A DNA stretch of 64,000 nucleotides, from sequence record OR621298; one strand, 5' to 3'. The DNA is from Escherichia phage vB_EcoD-Elw. Below are positions 10,093 through 58,170 of the stretch, one piece after another (position 1 is the stretch's first letter; the number at the start of each line of letters is the position of its first letter). The notes beneath the pieces are model-generated. The model worked only from the letters and a program-made list of their open reading frames with translations, did no database searches and had not been told where the DNA came from. The position numbers and the translations under genes are program-made.

Positions 10093-10503
10093 ATGACTAC
10101 TCCAACTCAGTGGACTGATGAACTGTTCGAAAAAATGTCTTCCGAATACGTTGCTCGTATGGAGCAATTCCCAGAGGATGAACGTCCTGGTGTTAGCATG
10201 GAAATTGTTAGCGAAATTGCCCAGGAAAATGGTGTAACTCCGAACGGTTTTCGTATGAAGCTAACTAAAGCAGGTTTGTACATCAAGAAAGCTGCTGGCT
10301 CTGCTTCTAAATCTAGTGCATCTACTGGAGAAAAAGCTTCTGGTGGTTCTCGCACTTCTAAAGCTAAAGCTCATGCCGACCTTCGTTCCGCATTCTCTGA
10401 TGCTGGCCTAGCACCAGATTTTCTGGATGATGCAATTATTGACAAACTGACCGGTAAAGCGGCTGCTCATCTGGCAGAAGCAATCCGAGCTATCACTAAG
10501 TAA
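10093..10503 (+). CDS. hypothetical Ala/Ser-rich early protein
   Basis: 136 aa; host-optimal codons suggest high expression. Confidence 0.5.
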   Translation: MTTPTQWTDELFEKMSSEYVARMEQFPEDERPGVSMEIVSEIAQENGVTPNGFRMKLTKAGLYIKKAAGSASKSSASTGEKASGGSRTSKAKAHADLRSAFSDAGLAPDFLDDAIIDKLTGKAAAHLAEAIRAITK

Positions 10504-10887: not shown

Positions 10888-11196
10888 ATGAGCGAACAGG
10901 TAAATCAAAACTATGAAGGACACGTTGATGACCAGTCCATCATACTTTGGGAGAAGGAGGGGGAACAAGTAAGATTAACAGTATCTGAATTTCGTGGGAA
11001 TCTATACATGGGTATTCGTTACTGGCTTCTTGATATTAATGATGAATGGTTTCCAACGAAATCTGGCTTCTCTTTTCCTTACACCCTAGAAACAACATCA
11101 CAGCTTTTCTATGCGTTTACACAGATTCTTAGCGAATCTGAGGTTTTACATGAAGTACAGAAACGAGCTGAAGAACTCAAAGCCAAGAATGCCTAG
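10888..11196 (+). CDS. hypothetical protein
   Basis: 102-aa ORF. Confidence 0.5.
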   Translation: MSEQVNQNYEGHVDDQSIILWEKEGEQVRLTVSEFRGNLYMGIRYWLLDINDEWFPTKSGFSFPYTLETTSQLFYAFTQILSESEVLHEVQKRAEELKAKNA

Positions 11197-11212
11197 TTCT
11201 TGGCTTTTTCTT
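11180..11212 (+). terminator. rho-independent terminator
   Basis: 10-bp stem aagccaagaa/ttcttggctt followed by a T-tract; the stop codon sits in the loop. Confidence 0.7.
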
Positions 11213-11223
11213 TATAAATGTAT

Positions 11224-11252
11224 TTGCTTTCAACTCAGTTTTGTTATATAAT
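11224..11252 (+). promoter_or_regulatory. early sigma70 promoter with conserved leader
   Basis: TTGCTT 11224-11229 and TATAAT 11247-11252, 17-bp spacer; leader tatttatataaattgataag. Confidence 0.7.
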
Positions 11253-11281
11253 ATTTATATAAATTGATAAGAGGATCAATT

Positions 11282-11470
11282 ATGAAAGTAACACTTCCAA
11301 AAATTCAAGCAAAGTTAAATCTAGTATCGAATGCTAGAAATAACTATCTAGATAACTTTGGTGGAATCAACGATAAAGCGTACAAAGATGCGTGGTTGAA
11401 AGAAGCACAAGAGTTAGCCGATCTCATTGCTCAGTATAATAAAGAACTACAGGTAGAAATGAATGACTAA
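11282..11470 (+). CDS. hypothetical small protein
   Basis: ATG at 11282 with AGAGGA RBS; the ORF track begins at an upstream TTG. Confidence 0.45.
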   Translation: MKVTLPKIQAKLNLVSNARNNYLDNFGGINDKAYKDAWLKEAQELADLIAQYNKELQVEMND

Positions 11471-12434
11471 TGTAAAAGACTTTATTAAACGTTGCCAAGA
11501 AGCATATTATCAAGGTATGTCTTTAATCTCTGATGAGGAGTATGATTGCCTGGTAAAACGCTTCCCACTAGAAGAAGAGATCGGGCCTAAGGGCGATATT
11601 CCACATCTGTATCGTATGTATTCTTTACAGAAAGTTTATTATAATCGTGGAGATAAACCCCCATTTAACCCATTAGGTCAGGTAGAAACTGACAAGTTAG
11701 ATGGTTGTGCGATTTCTCTACTATATATTAATGGCGAATTTGTTCAAGCACTAACTCGTGGTAATGGTATTCTAGGGAATGATGTCACAAGCAACGTAAG
11801 ATTGCTGAACATTCCTAAAAAGATTTCCCAAAAAGTACCTACTCAAATCACTGGTGAAGTTCTAATTACAAAAGAAGTAGAAAATAAACGTAACTTTGCC
11901 TCTGGTGCTATTAACCTAAAAGATAGTGATGCTTTCGTACAACGTATCGGGGAAGGTGGTTTAATCTTCGTTGCATACGGTATCCAGTGTTCTGCTGAAT
12001 CTGTAGGTATTACAGAATCATATTTAAAAGATATGCTTTGGCTAGAGAATGAAGACTTCTTAACAGTTGTTAATGTGCGTTCCTTCTTTAGATGGATTCC
12101 GACGGACGGTAAAGTTGTTCGTATTAATGACAACAACAAATTCTTCCGAGAAGGCTGGACTAATAAATTCCCTCGCGGGGCGTTCGCTATTAAAGAGGAT
12201 GAAGAAGGAGAGATTACAACTCTTACTAAAGTTGAATGGCAGGTAGGGGCTTCTGGTAAAGTAACTCCAGTTGGTTATTTCGAACCGGTAATTATTGATG
12301 ATGCTACAATTGTTAAAGCGACTCTTAATAACGTTGATTATATTAACTCTCTCGATCTAGAGATCGGTTGCCAGATTCGAGTGATTCGTGCTGGTGGTGT
12401 AATCCCGTGCATAGTAGAGCGAGTATACTATTAA
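11463..12434 (+). CDS. NAD-dependent DNA ligase, N-terminal adenylation subunit (split ligase)
   Basis: 323 aa; KxDG adenylation motif in TDKLDGCAISLLY; a separate ORF carries the C-terminal ligase domains. Confidence 0.6.
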   Translation: MTNVKDFIKRCQEAYYQGMSLISDEEYDCLVKRFPLEEEIGPKGDIPHLYRMYSLQKVYYNRGDKPPFNPLGQVETDKLDGCAISLLYINGEFVQALTRGNGILGNDVTSNVRLLNIPKKISQKVPTQITGEVLITKEVENKRNFASGAINLKDSDAFVQRIGEGGLIFVAYGIQCSAESVGITESYLKDMLWLENEDFLTVVNVRSFFRWIPTDGKVVRINDNNKFFREGWTNKFPRGAFAIKEDEEGEITTLTKVEWQVGASGKVTPVGYFEPVIIDDATIVKATLNNVDYINSLDLEIGCQIRVIRAGGVIPCIVERVYY

Positions 12435-12484
12435 TACATAACCCTTTGCTACCCATCTACCATATAGGAATTATAAAGTGGTTA

Positions 12485-12513
12485 TTGACATTTTCGCCGC
12501 TTAGGTATATACT
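12485..12513 (+). promoter_or_regulatory. sigma70 promoter in the ligase intergenic region
   Basis: TTGACA 12485-12490 and TATACT 12508-12513, 17-bp spacer. Confidence 0.5.
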
Positions 12514-12577
12514 ATTATCATTCAGTTGAGGGATAGAAAGTTATGGCGAGGGTAAGCAAAGTTAGTTAAAATTGTAG

Positions 12578-12606
12578 TTGCTAAATGCTTAAATACTTGC
12601 TATAAT
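12578..12606 (+). promoter_or_regulatory. early sigma70 promoter with conserved leader
   Basis: TTGCTA 12578-12583 and TGcTATAAT ending at 12606; leader tatttatataaattgataag. Confidence 0.65.
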
Positions 12607-12636
12607 ATTTATATAAATTGATAAGGAAGAAATTTG

Positions 12637-13416
12637 ATGAAAATCGAAATTCCAACACAATGTCCCTCTTGTGGTTCTAAGCTAGATCTTGTCAACGGAC
12701 AATTATTCTGTCGTAATAAGTCCAACTGTCCAGCGCAATCAAGCAAGTTAATTGAGAACTTCTGTTCAAAAATGAAGTTAAAGGGCTTTGGCCCAAAAAC
12801 TATTGAGAAGCTGGAGCTGACGAAGATTTCAGAACTATTTTACCTAACCGAAGAAGATTTGGTTAGAGCCGTGGGTAGCAAGGTTGCCGCTAAGTTAATT
12901 AGCGAATTAAATACTAAAGTTCGCGGAGACATTGACTTTGGTTCAGTTCTCGGTTCTTTAGGAATCCCTCTAATTGGAGAGGTTGCAGCAAAGAAATTAT
13001 CCCAAAATTGCACTAGCTTTCACGATGTGAAGGCTGACGGCAAGGCTGGAGAAAATTACAAAGCCTGGCTAAATTCCCCACAAGGCAAGGATGTTATTAA
13101 ACTACCGTGGAAATTTTCAACTGGTATTAAGGGCACTAAAGCTGACGTCATCATTACAGATGAATTAGTTGCCCAGCCAAATGGAATCGCGGTATGTATT
13201 ACCGGATCTTTGCAAGATTTTGCAAATCGAACGGATGCAACAAACTATTTAGAAGGTCTAGGATATACGGTTAAGAAATCCGTTACCAAAGACGTCAAAT
13301 ACCTAATCTGTGAGGATGAATCAAAACGTTCTTCCTCATCTTATAAGAAAGCCGAAACGAATGGGATAGAAATCCTGTCGATTAAAGAACTATTGGAGAA
13401 AAATAATAATGTCTAA
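12637..13416 (+). CDS. NAD-dependent DNA ligase, C-terminal subunit (Zn-finger/HhH/BRCT-like)
   Basis: Cys4 cluster CPSCGSK...CRNKSNCPAQ near the N-terminus; ATG at 12637 with AAGGAAG RBS. Confidence 0.55.
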   Translation: MKIEIPTQCPSCGSKLDLVNGQLFCRNKSNCPAQSSKLIENFCSKMKLKGFGPKTIEKLELTKISELFYLTEEDLVRAVGSKVAAKLISELNTKVRGDIDFGSVLGSLGIPLIGEVAAKKLSQNCTSFHDVKADGKAGENYKAWLNSPQGKDVIKLPWKFSTGIKGTKADVIITDELVAQPNGIAVCITGSLQDFANRTDATNYLEGLGYTVKKSVTKDVKYLICEDESKRSSSSYKKAETNGIEILSIKELLEKNNNV

Positions 13417-14176
13417 ACTGAACTGGAACGTAGAAGGTGTAACCGAGTCTCTGAAAGCAAAAGCCACTGCTCTGGGTGTTTCTGTAATCTCTCAAGAACA
13501 GGTAGCTGCTATCGCTGCTGAACTGGCTGCTGAAACTGGCAAAGATGTTACTGCTCGCTCTGTTGGCTCTAAACTGCGTAAAGAAGGTTTTGAAGTACAG
13601 AAAGCTAACGAAGTACAGAAATCCCCGTGGACTCCTGAGCAGGAAGCTGAACTGGTTGATTTCCTGAACGCTCATGCTGGTCAGTATACCTATGCTGAAA
13701 TCGCTGCTGCTGTAGCTGGTGGTCAGTTCGGTGCTAAGCAGGTACAGGGTAAGATCCTGAGTCTGGAAATGACCGCTTCTGTTAAACCAACTGAAAAAGC
13801 TGCTGCTGTTCGTTCCTTTACTCCGGATGAAGAAACTGATTTTGTTAATCAGGTTGTTGCTGGTGCTACTATTGAAGCTATCGCTGCTCACTTCGGCCGC
13901 AATATCAAGCAGATCCGTGGTAAAGCTCTGAGCCTGCTTCGTGAAGGTCGTATTGCTGCTATGCCGGTACAGGAAACTTCAAGTGCTAAAACTCGTGAAG
14001 ATCTGTTAGAAGGTCTGGATCTGGTTAACATGACTGTTGCTGAGATCGCTGAGAAAACCGGTAAGTCTGAGCGTGGTGTTAAATCTATGCTGTCTCGTCG
14101 TGGTCTGGTTGCTAAGGACTATGATGGTGCCGCTAAGCGTGCTAAACTGGATGCAAAAGCTGCGGCTGCTGAATAA
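13409..14176 (+). CDS. abundant early protein with four tandem HTH-like repeats
   Basis: 255 aa; repeated E(I/A)A...G(K/R)...(V/I)(K/R)...LS motifs; strongly host-optimal codons. Confidence 0.5.
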   Translation: MSKLNWNVEGVTESLKAKATALGVSVISQEQVAAIAAELAAETGKDVTARSVGSKLRKEGFEVQKANEVQKSPWTPEQEAELVDFLNAHAGQYTYAEIAAAVAGGQFGAKQVQGKILSLEMTASVKPTEKAAAVRSFTPDEETDFVNQVVAGATIEAIAAHFGRNIKQIRGKALSLLREGRIAAMPVQETSSAKTREDLLEGLDLVNMTVAEIAEKTGKSERGVKSMLSRRGLVAKDYDGAAKRAKLDAKAAAAE

Positions 14177-14195
14177 TCTGGTAAATTAAACCTAA

Positions 14196-14226
14196 GGGGA
14201 GGGGGCTATGCTCCTTCCCCTTTTTG
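14196..14226 (+). terminator. rho-independent terminator
   Basis: ggggaggggg-ctatg-ctccttcccc stem (with G-U pairs) followed by ttttt. Confidence 0.65.
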
Positions 14227-14258
14227 CATTTAGAAGGCACGAAAGCGTGCAAAGGAGA

Positions 14259-15731
14259 ATGACCTTGTTTAACGTGCAAGCTGTAGTGTTGAAGATGCTT
14301 CTAGCTTCCGAACAGAAGCAAATAGCATTGGAAACATTCTCAAAACTGCATAAAGATCATTTTAATGACGCTTTCTCCTCAATTTACCAAGCCGTCCAGA
14401 ATTATTATAAAAAATATAACACAATGCCGTCCATTGACGCACTTATGCTTGAAGCTAATAGGAACGCCCGCCTTTCTCAAGCTCTAGTCGTCTTAGCTAA
14501 CACTCAAATTCCAGAAGTGAGCATGGAACAGGCACTTGAAGTCCTAGAAGCCGAATATACACAGGATTTATTCCTGAAGCTTCTAGAAACAGACGTGCTT
14601 CAAGATTTAACAATGCTGGATCAGGGAGAAATTCTCAACCGAGTTGCCTCCCTTCACTTAAAATTAGAAGAGAAAGTAACGAATACTGGAAAAGTATTCA
14701 ACGCAGATAACATGCGTATTTTCCAGAGAGAAGAAGATACCAAACTGAACTTAATCGCTCTTGGTATTTGTAATGAGTTCGACGCTCAAATTGGTTTAGC
14801 TCGCACAGAAACGTTACTGCTTGGTGGTTGGCGTGGTACTGGTAAATCCATTATCTGTTCAAACATACAGGTTCAGCAATATTTGAATGGAGATATTGCT
14901 CCATACTTCTCAATTGAGATGAAAGAACACGAAGTATTTAGACGTAATCTAGCCATGTTAGCTGGTGTATCAGCACTAGCAATGCGTAATAATACTCTAG
15001 AAGGTGCAGCTCTGTTGAGATTAGCCAGAACTAGAGCCAGAATGTTTAATGGTGGTGAAGAGCTTTTTGATAACTTCGTTAAACAGTACACGATGGCTAA
15101 GATGAGTGATTTCTACGATATGGAGAGTAAGCTAATAGAGGGATATGAACTACATACTCCTATGATTATCGTTTATGACCCTGAACTGTCCATTACAACA
15201 GTTGACGTAGAATTAAATAAATTAGTTGCTAGATATGGTGATAAAGTTACAGTAGCTTTACTGGACTATATTAACCAAACCCGACTTCCAGATTCTAAAA
15301 CCATTGATATGTATGACTGGAAAGAACAGATGGTTGTTAGCTCGTCTTTCAAATCTATCTGCCAGAAACATAACGTGGCTGGTGTAGCTCCTTACCAGAT
15401 CGATCAAGATGGTAGAACACGTATGTCAAAGGGGATTCTTGATTCCGCAGACATGGCTGCTAATCTTAATGCTGCAAAAGCTGATAATGGTCAAGGTGCT
15501 ATTATGTTTGACTTCGTTAAGACTCGTTCTTCTGATAGCGTGAAGTTTATGCCTAAGATGAACTGGGAAACTCTGCGAATGGATAATACAACTAACCTAG
15601 CAATGGAAGATATATCTCAAATGGAAGCTGAGTTCGTTATCCCTATTGAGAAGGATAAGCCGGCTCAACCTAAACGTGCTAAGAAAGACAAAACTGAAAA
15701 TTTAACAGGTGAACAGGCCAGCGATATATGA
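14259..15731 (+). CDS. DnaB-like replicative helicase (RecA-fold ATPase)
   Basis: Walker A GGWRGTGKS; start moved to the ATG at 14259 (AAAGGAGA RBS) because the track start lies inside the terminator. Confidence 0.55.
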   Translation: MTLFNVQAVVLKMLLASEQKQIALETFSKLHKDHFNDAFSSIYQAVQNYYKKYNTMPSIDALMLEANRNARLSQALVVLANTQIPEVSMEQALEVLEAEYTQDLFLKLLETDVLQDLTMLDQGEILNRVASLHLKLEEKVTNTGKVFNADNMRIFQREEDTKLNLIALGICNEFDAQIGLARTETLLLGGWRGTGKSIICSNIQVQQYLNGDIAPYFSIEMKEHEVFRRNLAMLAGVSALAMRNNTLEGAALLRLARTRARMFNGGEELFDNFVKQYTMAKMSDFYDMESKLIEGYELHTPMIIVYDPELSITTVDVELNKLVARYGDKVTVALLDYINQTRLPDSKTIDMYDWKEQMVVSSSFKSICQKHNVAGVAPYQIDQDGRTRMSKGILDSADMAANLNAAKADNGQGAIMFDFVKTRSSDSVKFMPKMNWETLRMDNTTNLAMEDISQMEAEFVIPIEKDKPAQPKRAKKDKTENLTGEQASDI

Positions 15732-16618
15732 GTAGAATAACAGAACTACTTGATCTGAAAGGCATTGAATATAAAGACACAGGTGGGGACATCCTCATCT
15801 GTTGTCTCAATCCAGATCATGACGATAAACACCCAAGTTTGCGTATTGATCCTGAAACAGGTATTATGCACTGCTTGAGTTGTGGCTTCGGTAAAGGTAT
15901 ACCGAGCATTTACCATTATTTTAATGAGACTCAGTACCGACAGTCTCCAAGACTATCACAGGTACGTAAAAAGATTTCAGAGATTAGGAATGGATCAACG
16001 AATCTTGCAATTCCTGAATCTGCTTACCTTTTCGAAGGTGATTTCCGAGGTATAAGTTCTAAGACCTTGAAGAAATATTTTGCTTTCCAACACCAAGCAG
16101 ACTGGGAAGGCAGAATTGTATTCCCAATCACAGATGCTGTTGGACGCAATATCCTATTTTTGGGTCGTTCTATAAACAGTTCTGCCCCTCCTAAATACTT
16201 AGTAAAACCAAAACAAGTTTCACCGCCAATTTTTCCTGTACGATATAATACTCCAGTTCTTATTCTAGTTGAAGGCATCTTTGATATGCTGAACCTAGAG
16301 GATAATGGTATAGACTATGCTTCTTGCTGCTTTGGTACACATCAGTTTACTTCGGATAACATTGCAGATAAGTTCAGTCCTTATATTATTGCTGGGGTAA
16401 AAGTTGTTGTTATCTTACTAGATAATGATGCTTCTGGTAATAAAGCTGCACAAGCATTGGCTAAGCTAATTCGTACAAAAACGCGTTTAACACCTGTAGT
16501 TGCTAACTTCCTCCTGCCTGAAGGCAAAGATCCAGGTGATTTAAACAAAGATGAAATTGATATGTTAGCAAAACGTATTGAAATTTTAGTTGCTGAATCG
16601 CTTAAAGATTTGGTATAA
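15728..16618 (+). CDS. DNA primase (DnaG-like, Zn-finger plus TOPRIM)
   Basis: CHC2-type Zn finger CCLNPDHDDKHPS...HCLSCGFGKG; TOPRIM-like VEGIFDMLNLED and LLDNDASG. Confidence 0.7.
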   Translation: MSRITELLDLKGIEYKDTGGDILICCLNPDHDDKHPSLRIDPETGIMHCLSCGFGKGIPSIYHYFNETQYRQSPRLSQVRKKISEIRNGSTNLAIPESAYLFEGDFRGISSKTLKKYFAFQHQADWEGRIVFPITDAVGRNILFLGRSINSSAPPKYLVKPKQVSPPIFPVRYNTPVLILVEGIFDMLNLEDNGIDYASCCFGTHQFTSDNIADKFSPYIIAGVKVVVILLDNDASGNKAAQALAKLIRTKTRLTPVVANFLLPEGKDPGDLNKDEIDMLAKRIEILVAESLKDLV

Positions 16619-21307: not shown

Positions 21308-21592
21308 ATGCTTACAGAGCCTGATGCTCATCAATTATTGGTCGGTTCCTCATTCATTTTGAATGAATCAACAATAGTTGATAATCCAAATAAATTGTCT
21401 AATAGACAACTGGCAGAATATCTAGGAATTTTAAGTCTACGAAATTATGCCGAATACAAGTTTACAAACGATCCTAGTTTGGACATACAATATGTTCCAG
21501 TATGGATACCACGTTTAGTAATCGACACTAACCCACTAATCGCAATTAACAAATCGAAATTAATCTTTAAAGAGGAAATAAAATATGGCTAA
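21308..21592 (+). CDS. hypothetical protein
   Basis: 94-aa ORF with a weak RBS. Confidence 0.35.
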   Translation: MLTEPDAHQLLVGSSFILNESTIVDNPNKLSNRQLAEYLGILSLRNYAEYKFTNDPSLDIQYVPVWIPRLVIDTNPLIAINKSKLIFKEEIKYG

Positions 21593-22355
21593 GTCTTGGG
21601 GCGAAACTACTGGCGGTTCTAACGATAAAATCGAATTCCTGAAGTTCAACAACGGTATCACTCGTGTTCGTATCGTTTCTGGTGTTCTTCCACGTTATGT
21701 CTATTGGCTGACTAATAAAGAGGGTAGCGTAGCTCCTTTCGAATGTCTTCGTTTCAACCGTGACAAAGAGAGCTTTGTTCGTGGTAAAGCCGATCCGGTT
21801 CATGAGATGGGCTTCTTTGAGAAAGAGCTGGATAAAGACGGTAATCGTGTTCCGCTGAAACCGAAGAAAAACTATATCGCTTTTGTTATTGACCGTTCTG
21901 ATAACAAGCTGAAAGTAATGGAAGTCAAGGCTACTATTCTGAAAGGCATCCAGTCTATCATGAAGCAGTTGAACCTGGCAACTCCGTTTGATATTGATAT
22001 TTCTATCGAGAAAAAAGGTAAAGGTTTCGATACTGAGTATGATGTACAGCAGATTGCTGCTATGCAGTTCCAGATTAAGCTGCAAGATCCTAACAGTGCG
22101 GAATCTAAGCAATATGCTGCGGATGTAGATCTGATCGGTGAAGCTATGTGTGATGAAGATGGTGACATCATTAAGTTCGAAAAAGTTCCTTCTCTGGAAC
22201 AAACCTATCCGGTTCCTACCTATGAAGAGCAGAAAGAAGCAATTCAAGCCTTCATGGAAGGTCGTGAGAATAAAGATGATGCCAAATCTGGTAACAGCAA
22301 TGCTGGTTCCCAGAAAGGTATTGACCAAGAAGCTGCAAGCGATCTGGACGACTAA
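21585..22355 (+). CDS. putative ssDNA-binding protein (acidic C-terminal tail)
   Basis: 256 aa; acidic tail ending ...EAASDLDD; host-optimal codons. Confidence 0.4.
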   Translation: MAKSWGETTGGSNDKIEFLKFNNGITRVRIVSGVLPRYVYWLTNKEGSVAPFECLRFNRDKESFVRGKADPVHEMGFFEKELDKDGNRVPLKPKKNYIAFVIDRSDNKLKVMEVKATILKGIQSIMKQLNLATPFDIDISIEKKGKGFDTEYDVQQIAAMQFQIKLQDPNSAESKQYAADVDLIGEAMCDEDGDIIKFEKVPSLEQTYPVPTYEEQKEAIQAFMEGRENKDDAKSGNSNAGSQKGIDQEAASDLDD

Positions 22356-57753: not shown

Positions 57754-58170
57754 TTATTCGCCTGCGGCTTGTTTCACTTCATCGGCAACGCCTAACAGTT
57801 GCGCCACGGCGTCCAGCGTTTCCAGTTTTGCGCTTTCCAGTGATGCCAGATCGTCGGCGTCTTTGATAATGCCGGAATCGATAGCGTGTTTTGCAATAAC
57901 GCGCACATAATGCGCTTTGCGGATTGAGCTACCGCCGCCAACTTTGCGCGGCTTATCGCTTTTCTGATACGCTTTTGCGCTGGTCAATTTTGAGCGAACG
58001 GACACGGGGGAGGCCGCGCCAACTGCTTTTGCAATCTCTTTCAGGCCGTCGCTATTTGCGAAATCTAAACCGTTTTCATTAATTAACTGCTGGTACATGG
58101 TAACAGCTTTTTGGGTGTTTTCTTCATTCCATGCAAATTTTGCGGATTTTTCGGTTTTAACGTTAGCCAT
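57754..58170 (-). CDS. A2-like pre-early protein (putative)
   Basis: 138 aa; position directly upstream of A1; assignment by synteny only. Confidence 0.4.
   Translation of the reverse strand: MANVKTEKSAKFAWNEENTQKAVTMYQQLINENGLDFANSDGLKEIAKAVGAASPVSVRSKLTSAKAYQKSDKPRKVGGGSSIRKAHYVRVIAKHAIDSGIIKDADDLASLESAKLETLDAVAQLLGVADEVKQAAGE

What the first reader, a model, noticed from the sequence alone, without database searches (positions are those of the whole stretch)
13409..14176. Highly expressed early protein built from four tandem HTH-like repeats
Four ~55-aa repeats each end in an HTH-like motif (EIA..G.S...VKS.LSRRG), and the codon usage is strongly host-optimal. This looks like an abundant DNA-binding or RNAP-binding factor, a candidate for transcription-switching functions.
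Basis: inference. Interest (0 to 1): 0.4.

Follow-up and report, generated by a model that had tools for sequence, protein, structure and literature searches.

The report
Phage T5 D5 DNA-binding protein
This gene is the long-known D5 gene of T5-like phages, an abundant early double-stranded-DNA-binding protein needed for phage DNA replication and the early-to-late switch; it is indeed built from four tandem helix-turn-helix modules, so the finding is correct but already known.

Summary
The ORF at 13409..14176 (+) is real. It is the orthologue of bacteriophage T5 gene D5 (T5.118): 254 of 255 residues are identical, and it matches PHROG 323 'transcriptional regulator, D5-like' at E 1.4e-71. The T5 RefSeq record annotates D5 as a DNA-binding protein required for DNA replication and late transcription.

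Both parts of the observation hold.
- Repeats: an AlphaFold2 model (pLDDT 92) shows four consecutive small helical HTH units. A self-alignment of the family profile gives a shift-by-one-repeat match (residues 71-225 onto 3-170, probability 96%, E 5.6e-9).
- Codon usage: the gene has the highest E. coli codon adaptation index of 57 ORFs in the window (0.73, median 0.26), above the major head protein.

The gene sits in a ligB-D5 unit behind the strong early promoters P-K28b/a and ahead of an intrinsic terminator.

Novelty: already known. The four-module, GcrA-like architecture is a modest refinement.

The parts
13409..14176 (+). Gene D5 (255 aa plus stop): abundant early dsDNA-binding protein of T5-like phages
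   Evidence: ORF. 254/255 aa identical to T5 D5/T5.118. PHROG 323 'D5-like' at E 1.4e-71. 513 phage records match by megablast; the best is Salmonella phage EH7 at 99.6%.
13409..13618 (+). Repeat 1 (aa 1-70). Helices 11-22, 29-43, 49-58. Recognition-helix motif TARSVGSKLRK. W6, R50, K55, L56 and R57 are invariant in the family.
   Evidence: AF2 model; family alignment A1; shift-by-one self-alignment.
13619..13810 (+). Repeat 2 (aa 71-134). Helices 76-88, 95-101, 109-118. Motif AKQVQGKILSL. Q113, G114, K115 and L117 are invariant.
   Evidence: R2-R3 probability 96%. Sub-threshold Pfam Myb match at aa 71-100.
13811..13975 (+). Repeat 3 (aa 135-189). Helices 139-150, 155-162, 166-178. Motif IKQIRGKALSL. 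G171 and K172 are invariant. This is the repeat most like the GcrA DNA-binding domain.
   Evidence: hhalign of R3 against the GcrA DBD gives 86.9%. Pfam HTH_23 matches aa 151-184 below threshold.
13976..14125 (+). Repeat 4 (aa 190-239). The first helix is weak or absent. The HTH is helices 210-217 and 221-231. Motif ERGVKSMLSRRG. G223, L228, R230 and R231 are invariant. This is the most basic repeat.
   Evidence: Pfam Sigma70_r4_2 at aa 204-230, 28.8 bits against a cut-off of 25.7. Model. pI 9.1 for aa 190-255.
14126..14173 (+). C-terminal Ala/Lys-rich helix (aa 240-255)
   Evidence: AF2 helix 240-254. D237 and G240 just before it are invariant.
13395..13398 (+). Shine-Dalgarno-like GGAG, 10 nt before the ATG. 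The D5 start overlaps the ligB stop by 8 nt (13409-13416).
   Evidence: Read directly from the sequence. A ligB/D5 overlap is also present in a 53%-identical metagenomic relative.
12485..12513 (+). Sigma-70 promoter (TTGACA-17-TATACT, 11/12). It lies where T5 annotates early promoter P-K28b.
   Evidence: Scan. T5 annotation at 66366-66440, which is window 12465-12539 at the offset that maps T5 D5 onto 13409.
12578..12606 (+). Sigma-70 promoter (TTGCTA-17-TATAAT with TG, 10/12). It lies where T5 annotates early promoter P-K28a.
   Evidence: Scan. T5 annotation at 66459-66533, which is window 12558-12632.
12637..13416 (+). ligB (second half of the split NAD-dependent DNA ligase), co-transcribed upstream partner of D5
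   Evidence: ORF. T5.117 annotation.
14194..14227 (+). Intrinsic-terminator-like hairpin (13 pairs, 8 G-C, loop 3) followed by a T-run, 18 nt after the D5 stop
   Evidence: Scan. RNA fold: -24.6 kcal/mol, z -2.7.

Best explanation
This is the D5 gene of a T5-like phage (Demerecviridae). It encodes a 27-kDa, cysteine-free, near-neutral protein made of four tandem three-helix HTH modules. The modules are of the GcrA-DBD / Myb-like (homeodomain-like) kind.

In each module the third helix carries the family-invariant residues: R-S-V-G-S-K-L-R, Q-G-K-x-L, R-G-K-x-L-S-L and R-G-x-x-x-x-L-x-R-R. That helix is the probable DNA-contacting helix.

Expression: the gene is transcribed early, together with ligB, from the strong promoters P-K28b/a, and transcription ends at a terminator just after the gene. 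Its extreme codon adaptation points to very large amounts of protein.

Proposed mechanism:
- The four-module array lies along double-stranded DNA. It contacts the DNA mainly through the backbone and with low sequence specificity, and it coats the phage DNA.
- This changes the template rather than the polymerase. Replication can proceed, early transcription is shut off, and late transcription by the unchanged host sigma-70 RNAP becomes possible.

Status of each step:
- Shown here: gene identity, the repeats, the predicted HTH fold, the codon bias and the operon anatomy.
- Taken from the record and the literature: DNA binding, the requirement for replication and late transcription, the monomeric state, and binding to retron DNA.
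- Inferred: array-on-DNA binding, low specificity, and action at the template level.
For: Identity.

Contact residues: GcrA's phosphate-contacting W3 and K39 and its base-contacting G38 align with the conserved W/F and invariant G-K of the D5 repeats. Its other base-reading residues, H41 and R42, align with L and S. This fits backbone-dominated binding.

Abundance: CAI 0.728, the top of 57 ORFs and above the capsid protein. The D5 homologue is among the most abundant proteins in Yersinia phage phiR2-01 virion preparations (PMC8624392).

Function: the RefSeq note on T5.118. PMC12630848, citing McCorquodale 1979, describes D5 as implicated in phage genome replication and in suppression of early gene expression. 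T5 D5 is a 26-kDa monomer, is toxic when expressed alone, and triggers retron-Kva2; the authors model it (AlphaFold3) engaging the retron msdDNA through an HTH (bioRxiv 10.64898/2026.07.11.737809).

Context: the order PC4-like, ligA, ligB, D5, DnaB helicase, primase, PolA is kept in a 53%-identical relative.

Own knowledge, not checked here: Rice et al. 1979 (J Biol Chem) and Fujimura & Roop 1983 (J Virol) reported cooperative binding of purified D5 protein to duplex DNA.
Against: - No DNA-binding experiment can be run here, and the classical papers could not be read (PMC353123 is not held).
- The inter-domain arrangement is uncertain (pTM 0.49), so the 'array along DNA' geometry is not modelled.
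- Overall pI is 6.8 and repeat R2 is acidic (pI 5.1). That is unusual for a DNA-coating protein and leaves room for protein-protein contacts by some repeats.
- The similarity of R1 and R4 to the other repeats is weak when taken pair by pair.
- The retron-Kva2 result suggests D5 can recognise a particular DNA stem-loop, so some structure or sequence preference may exist.
Confidence: 0.75

Rival explanations
1. D5 is an RNA-polymerase-binding factor, a sigma-like or GcrA-like appropriator. It would dock on host sigma-70 holoenzyme and redirect it from early to late promoters.
For: - R4 passes the Pfam Sigma70_r4_2 threshold (28.8 against 25.7 bits) and gives a weak Sigma70_r3 hit.
- The closest solved structure is GcrA, a factor that travels with sigma-70.
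- D5 is needed for late transcription, and the T5 early-to-late switch mechanism is still unknown.
- Own knowledge, not checked here: Ficht & Moyer 1980 reported D5 protein in a replication-transcription complex.
Against: - There is no sigma region 2.
- GcrA binds sigma through a C-terminal CCCH zinc finger. D5 has no Cys and no such domain.
- RNAP purified from T5-infected cells at 3, 15 and 25 min carried only gpA1, a pb8 fragment and gpT5.026 as phage-specific bands. D5 was not seen, despite the high abundance its codon bias implies.
- An abundance above that of the capsid protein is far more than a stoichiometric RNAP partner needs.
Confidence: 0.1
2. D5 is a conventional sequence-specific transcription factor. 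Its four HTH modules would read a composite operator, repressing early promoters and/or activating late ones.
For: - HTH modules are typical of specific regulators.
- Many records annotate the gene as 'putative transcription factor' or 'transcriptional regulator'.
- T5 early promoters share a distinctive discriminator, ATATT, that could be a target.
- The retron msdDNA result hints at some specificity.
Against: - The codon bias implies huge copy numbers, which a regulator of a few dozen promoters does not need.
- The protein is monomeric.
- GcrA's base-reading residues H41 and R42 are not conserved.
- The replication defect of D5 mutants is not explained by this model.
- Classical reports of cooperative binding to duplex DNA (own knowledge, not checked here) fit coating better than operator binding.
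Confidence: 0.1
3. D5 is primarily a replisome or fork accessory protein, for example a duplex-DNA clamp or helicase-loading adaptor. Its transcription phenotypes would then be secondary to failed replication, as in phages where late transcription depends on replication.
For: - The position between the ligase and the DnaB-type helicase, primase and PolA is conserved in distant relatives.
- D5 is required for DNA replication.
- A tandem HTH DNA-binding domain of the replisome protein Timeless appears among the structural hits (6taz/6t9q).
- Own knowledge, not checked here: D5 protein modulates T5 DNA polymerase on duplex templates in vitro (Fujimura & Roop 1983).
Against: - There is no detectable enzymatic or known protein-interaction domain.
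- The abundance is much higher than that of the replisome enzymes encoded beside it.
- The shutoff of early genes attributed to D5 is not an obvious consequence of replication failure.
Confidence: 0.05

Closest known systems
Bacteriophage T5 gene D5 protein (T5.118, YP_006946; PHROG 323 'transcriptional regulator, D5-like')
   Same: 254 of 255 residues are identical, with the same length. The neighbours are the same (ligA, P-K28b/a, ligB, D5, D6 helicase, primase, pol), as is the 8-nt overlap with ligB.
   Different: One substitution (S25 here, D25 in T5). The window lacks the hegJ HNH endonuclease gene that T5 has between the helicase and the primase.
Caulobacter crescentus GcrA DNA-binding domain (PDB 5YIU/5YIV; Pfam PF07750)
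   Different: - D5 has four such modules where GcrA has one.
- D5 has no linker and no CCCH zinc-finger sigma-70-interacting domain (0 Cys).
- The Pfam GcrA model does not hit D5.
- GcrA's base-reading H41 and R42 are not conserved.
Myb/SANT repeat arrays (c-Myb R2R3, SNAPC4, Cdc5/Cef1)
   Same: They are tandem arrays of three-helix HTH modules of about 50 aa that begin W-[ST]-x-E-E. There are weak profile hits: SNAPC4 E 2.6e-5 summed over repeats, c-Myb E 0.0025, hhalign 37-59%.
   Different: The three regularly spaced tryptophans of Myb are absent; only the first aromatic residue is kept. The Pfam Myb score is below threshold (17.6 against 24.4 bits). Myb arrays read specific sequences.
Sigma-70 region 4 / LuxR-GerE type HTH
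   Same: R4 passes the Pfam Sigma70_r4_2 threshold. TraR, DevR and EvgA appear among the structural hits.
   Different: D5 has no sigma region 2 or 3 architecture and no receiver or ligand domain. The match covers only 27 residues.
WH protein of the type IX retron-Kva2
   Same: According to bioRxiv 10.64898/2026.07.11.737809, a D5 HTH superposes on the retron WH protein at 1.3 A and is predicted to bind the same msdDNA stem-loop, which triggers the defence.
   Different: This is a case of mimicry or recognition by host immunity. It is not the phage function of D5, and it was not examined here.

Membership tests
T5 D5 protein family (PHROG 323) | Full-length sequence homology to T5 D5 | tested here: met
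   254/255 identity. PHROG 323 at E 1.4e-71, covering aa 1-253.
T5 D5 protein family (PHROG 323) | Position in the early replication module, between ligB and the DnaB-type helicase | tested here: met
   Window ORFs. T5 annotation. Same order in a distant metagenomic relative.
T5 D5 protein family (PHROG 323) | Binding of double-stranded DNA by the purified protein | not testable with these tools
   Supported only by the RefSeq note, a predicted HTH fold and cited literature.
T5 D5 protein family (PHROG 323) | Genetic requirement for DNA replication, early shutoff and late transcription | not testable with these tools
   RefSeq note on T5.118. PMC12630848 citing McCorquodale 1979.
GcrA (Pfam PF07750) | GcrA-type N-terminal DNA-binding fold | tested here: met
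GcrA (Pfam PF07750) | Match to the Pfam GcrA model at or above its gathering score | tested here: not met
   GcrA is absent from the Pfam hits of the whole protein at E up to 10, and of repeats R1-R3 scanned alone at E up to 1.
GcrA (Pfam PF07750) | C-terminal CCCH zinc-finger sigma-70-interacting domain | tested here: not met
   D5 has no cysteine. The domain is defined in PMC5887438.
Sigma-70 family | Region 4 HTH | tested here: met
   PF08281 at aa 204-230, 28.8 bits against a cut-off of 25.7.
Sigma-70 family | Region 2 (core binding and -10 recognition) | tested here: not met
   No Sigma70_r2 hit at E up to 10. Aa 1-190 is occupied by three further HTH modules.
Myb/SANT repeats | Pfam Myb_DNA-binding at threshold, with three spaced Trp per repeat | tested here: not met
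   17.6 bits against a cut-off of 24.4. Only the first aromatic residue is conserved (W6, W74, F137).

The most novel reading that the evidence does not exclude
D5 may be a phage 'chromatin' protein: a four-HTH array derived from a GcrA-like DNA-binding module. It would polymerise on newly replicated phage DNA and so mark the template for late transcription by unmodified sigma-70 RNAP. That would couple late gene expression to replication without any dedicated sigma or RNAP-binding factor. The same DNA-coating surface would be what type IX retrons have evolved to sense.
Probability: 0.25. Interest if true: 0.5.

Novelty: already known. Interest (0 to 1): 0.2.

Why it matters
The gene is a textbook T5 early gene, so nothing new is discovered by finding it. 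Three things add modest value.

1. The first-stage reading (repeats, HTH, high expression, transcription switch) was accurate from raw sequence alone.
2. D5 can now be described as four tandem GcrA-DBD-like modules with an invariant G-K or basic motif in each third helix. That gives concrete residues to mutate in a protein whose mechanism is still undefined. The T5 early-to-late switch also remains unexplained (PMC7472727).
3. D5 has recently been reported as the trigger of a type IX retron. Knowing that it offers four similar DNA-binding surfaces, not one HTH, bears on how that sensing works.

Tried and rejected
- BLASTP of the protein against itself gave only the diagonal. Single-sequence Smith-Waterman with shuffles supported only R2-R3, so family profiles were needed.
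- Profiles of the family and of the repeats against PDB sequences found no solved D5 relative. The GcrA DBD reached only E 0.81 by HMMER.
- A DNA-level repeat search found only GCT-rich chance matches. Rfam found nothing in 11000-16000.
- The DRT4 paper on a 'phage-encoded DNA binding protein' of T5 concerns ORF55, not D5.
- The primary 1979 J Virol paper on D5 (PMC353123) is not held. Classical biochemistry is therefore cited only from memory or second hand.
- Distant multi-repeat hits from the representative search (P0267, P0251, P0261; 6-9 stretches) turned out to be generic HTH_7/HTH_23/Myb arrays by Pfam. I do not count them as D5 family members.
- The antisense ORF 13382..13891 (169 aa, Ser-rich) was judged a by-product of the codon-biased sense strand. 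No evidence for it was sought beyond its composition.

Full report
WHAT IS THERE

The window carries an ATG-to-TAA ORF of 255 codons at 13409..14176 on the + strand. Megablast finds it in 513 phage records, nearly all T5-like phages of Salmonella, Escherichia and Klebsiella. The best match is Salmonella phage EH7 at 99.6%, annotated 'putative transcription factor D5'. The protein matches PHROG 323 'transcriptional regulator, D5-like' at E 1.4e-71 over its full length.

In the T5 RefSeq record the collinear gene is D5 (T5.118, 67310-68077). Its note reads 'DNA-binding protein; required for DNA replication and late transcription; also is involved in shutoff of expression of ...'. The two proteins differ at one residue out of 255. 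The finding is therefore the classical T5 gene D5.

CHECKING THE OBSERVATION: REPEATS

Within the single sequence only one pair is clearly related. R2 (aa 71-134) and R3 (aa 135-189) score z 7.4 against shuffles, and the other pairs are marginal.

I collected homologues (759 at E <= 1e-3, down to about 47% identity) and aligned 32 diverse ones (A1). Sub-alignments of the four units compared by hhalign give R2-R3 96% (E 2.5e-9), R3-R4 70% and R1-R4 47%.

The clearest test is aligning the family profile to itself. The best off-diagonal alignment places residues 71-225 on residues 3-170, over 152 columns, with probability 95.9% and E 5.6e-9. That superposes three consecutive units on the three preceding ones, in register. 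This is the signature of a tandem repeat protein.

An AlphaFold2 model built on A1 has mean pLDDT 92.1. It shows four consecutive small helical units (helices 11-22/29-43/49-58; 76-88/95-101/109-118; 139-150/155-162/166-178; 210-217/221-231) and a C-terminal helix at 240-254. The pTM of 0.49 shows that the relative orientation of the units is not defined.

Family-invariant residues cluster in the third helix of every unit: R50, K55, L56, R57; Q113, G114, K115, L117; G171, K172; G223, L228, R230, R231.

- The period is 55-68 residues.
- The literal motif quoted fits only the fourth unit.
- The fourth unit lacks a confident first helix.
- The repeats leave no trace at the DNA level.

CHECKING THE OBSERVATION: CODON USAGE

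The gene has CAI 0.728, the highest of the 57 ATG-ORFs of at least 100 aa in the window (median 0.261). The next highest are, by PHROG:
- the major head protein (0.649);
- the single-strand DNA-binding protein (0.564);
- two PC4-like DNA-binding proteins (0.538 and 0.471).

The claim of strongly host-optimal codons is confirmed. By this measure D5 is predicted to be made in at least capsid-like amounts. Independent support comes from Yersinia phage phiR2-01, where the D5 homologue was among the most abundant proteins in virion preparations (PMC8624392).

SURROUNDINGS

Upstream lie the two halves of a split NAD-dependent ligase: ligA at 11463-12434 and ligB at 12637-13416. In the gap between them are two strong sigma-70 promoter matches, at 12485-12513 and 12578-12606. 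They fall inside the segments that T5 annotates as promoters P-K28b and P-K28a.

The D5 ATG overlaps the ligB stop by 8 nt and is preceded by GGAG. Eighteen bases after the D5 stop there is a 13-pair G+C-rich hairpin followed by a T-run. The unit is therefore P-K28b/a, ligB, D5, terminator.

Downstream come the DnaB-type helicase and the primase; in T5 the DNA polymerase follows. The same order (PC4-like, ligA, ligB, D5, DnaB, primase, PolA), again with a ligB/D5 overlap, is found in a 53%-identical metagenomic relative. D5 is thus a core member of this replication module.

No Rfam family matches the region. The 169-codon antisense ORF inside D5 is Ser-rich and is best explained by the biased sense strand.

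WHAT KIND OF MODULE IT IS

Pfam places R4 in Sigma70_r4_2, just above threshold (28.8 against 25.7 bits). It gives sub-threshold HTH_23, HTH_28, Myb and HTH_33 hits to the other units.

Whole-chain Foldseek against the PDB is not significant. Its list consists mainly of multi-HTH proteins such as SelB, Cdc5, POU, sigma factors, Tc3/Mos1, TnsB and TraR.

An independent sequence test agrees. A profile of 63 R2 and R3 segments (A2) aligns to the GcrA DBD over 46-47 of its 49 residues, without gaps, at 93-95% probability. As specificity controls, the same profile gives:
- 58.8% for c-Myb R2;
- 37.5% for c-Myb R3;
- 9.5% for sigma-70 region 4;
- 1.6-4.0% for NarL, Tc3, Hin and engrailed.

The GcrA-DNA crystal structure paper (PMC5887438) lists W3 and K39 among the phosphate contacts, and R33, N34, I37, G38, H41 and R42 as the base contacts. 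In the alignment, W3, G38 and K39 correspond to the conserved W/F and the invariant G-K of the D5 units. H41 and R42 correspond to L and S. This fits binding dominated by backbone contacts.

D5 is not a GcrA family member. The Pfam GcrA model does not hit it. GcrA's defining sigma-70-interacting CCCH zinc finger is absent, and D5 has no cysteine at all.

HOW IT MOST LIKELY WORKS

I propose that the four-module array lies along duplex DNA and coats phage DNA in large amounts. It would act on the template rather than on the polymerase. That would account for the three phenotypes attached to the gene: no replication, no early shutoff and no late transcription.

Supporting points from the literature held here:
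- D5 is a 26-kDa monomer.
- It is toxic when expressed alone.
- It triggers the type IX retron-Kva2. The authors model it (AlphaFold3) as binding the retron's msdDNA through an HTH that mimics the retron's own WH protein (bioRxiv 10.64898/2026.07.11.737809).

The escape mutations reported there fall at G53, W74 and G232. In my alignment G53 and W74 are nearly invariant repeat positions, and G232 is the final G of R4's conserved RRG motif.

From my own knowledge, not checked here: Rice et al. 1979 and Fujimura & Roop 1983 described cooperative duplex-DNA binding by purified D5 protein and effects on T5 DNA polymerase.

RIVALS

The RNAP-binding reading has three points in its favour: the sigma region 4 match, the GcrA resemblance and the late-transcription phenotype. 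Against it:
- D5 lacks sigma region 2 and the GcrA sigma-binding domain.
- RNAP purified from T5-infected cells at three time points carried only gpA1, a capsid fragment and gpT5.026 as phage-specific bands (PMC7472727).

A sequence-specific regulator is hard to square with the abundance implied by the codon bias, the monomeric state and the non-conserved base-reading residues.

A purely replisomal role fits the synteny. It does not explain the abundance or the early shutoff.

FAMILY BREADTH

A full scan of 1.84 billion representative proteins finds 477 clusters at E <= 1e-3 and 75 at E <= 1e-30. Most full-length members in the top of the list are 231-262 aa, so the four-unit plan is conserved. 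One relative (P0121, 309 aa) has five units, through duplication of R2.

More distant hits with 6-9 matched stretches are generic HTH_7/HTH_23/Myb arrays. I do not count them as family members.

VERDICT

The object is already known: it is T5 D5. The refinement offered here is the description of D5 as four tandem GcrA-DBD-like modules with defined invariant third-helix residues, placed in a ligB-D5 early transcription unit. Interest is low (0.2).

Noticed in passing
window 11463-12434 and 12637-13416, gap 12435-12636: The NAD-dependent DNA ligase is split into two genes (ligA, ligB). Two strong sigma-70 promoters (T5 P-K28b/a) sit in the 200-bp gap between them. ligB and D5 are therefore transcribed from promoters that lie inside the ligase.
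   Followed up: partly
window 14208 (annotated helicase start) within hairpin 14194-14222: The longest-ORF start of the DnaB-type helicase, which is also the T5 RefSeq start for D6, lies in the loop of the D5 terminator hairpin. In-frame GTG 14247 or ATG 14259 may be the real start.
   Followed up: no
window 15728-15731 compared with T5 69614-70147 (L001 9615-10148): T5 carries an HNH homing endonuclease gene (hegJ) between the helicase and the primase. In this window the helicase stop overlaps the primase start directly, so that endonuclease is absent.
   Followed up: no
window 10093-10503 (+) and 57754-58170 (-): Two paralogous PC4-like 'DNA binding protein' genes (both PHROG 1725) lie on opposite strands. 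Both have high codon adaptation (0.54 and 0.47). Together with D5 and the SSB (21585-22355, 0.56) and the major head protein, the DNA-binding proteins are the most codon-optimised genes in the window.
   Followed up: partly
window 13382-13891 (-): A 169-codon, Ser-rich antisense ORF lies inside D5. It is most likely a by-product of the GCT/CTG-rich sense strand and not a gene.
   Followed up: no
P0121 (309 aa), P0247 (569 aa) and P0254 (506 aa): One D5 relative has five repeats (R2 duplicated). Two distant proteins join a sigma/LuxR-like N-terminal part to several D5-like HTH repeats. Their genomic context is unknown.
   Followed up: partly
Literature: PMC8624392; bioRxiv 10.64898/2026.07.11.737809: The D5 homologue was among the most abundant proteins in phiR2-01 virion preparations, although it is not a known T5 virion protein. 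A T5 retron-escape mutant was reported with a premature stop (W74*) in D5, which is odd for a gene annotated as required for DNA replication.
   Followed up: no
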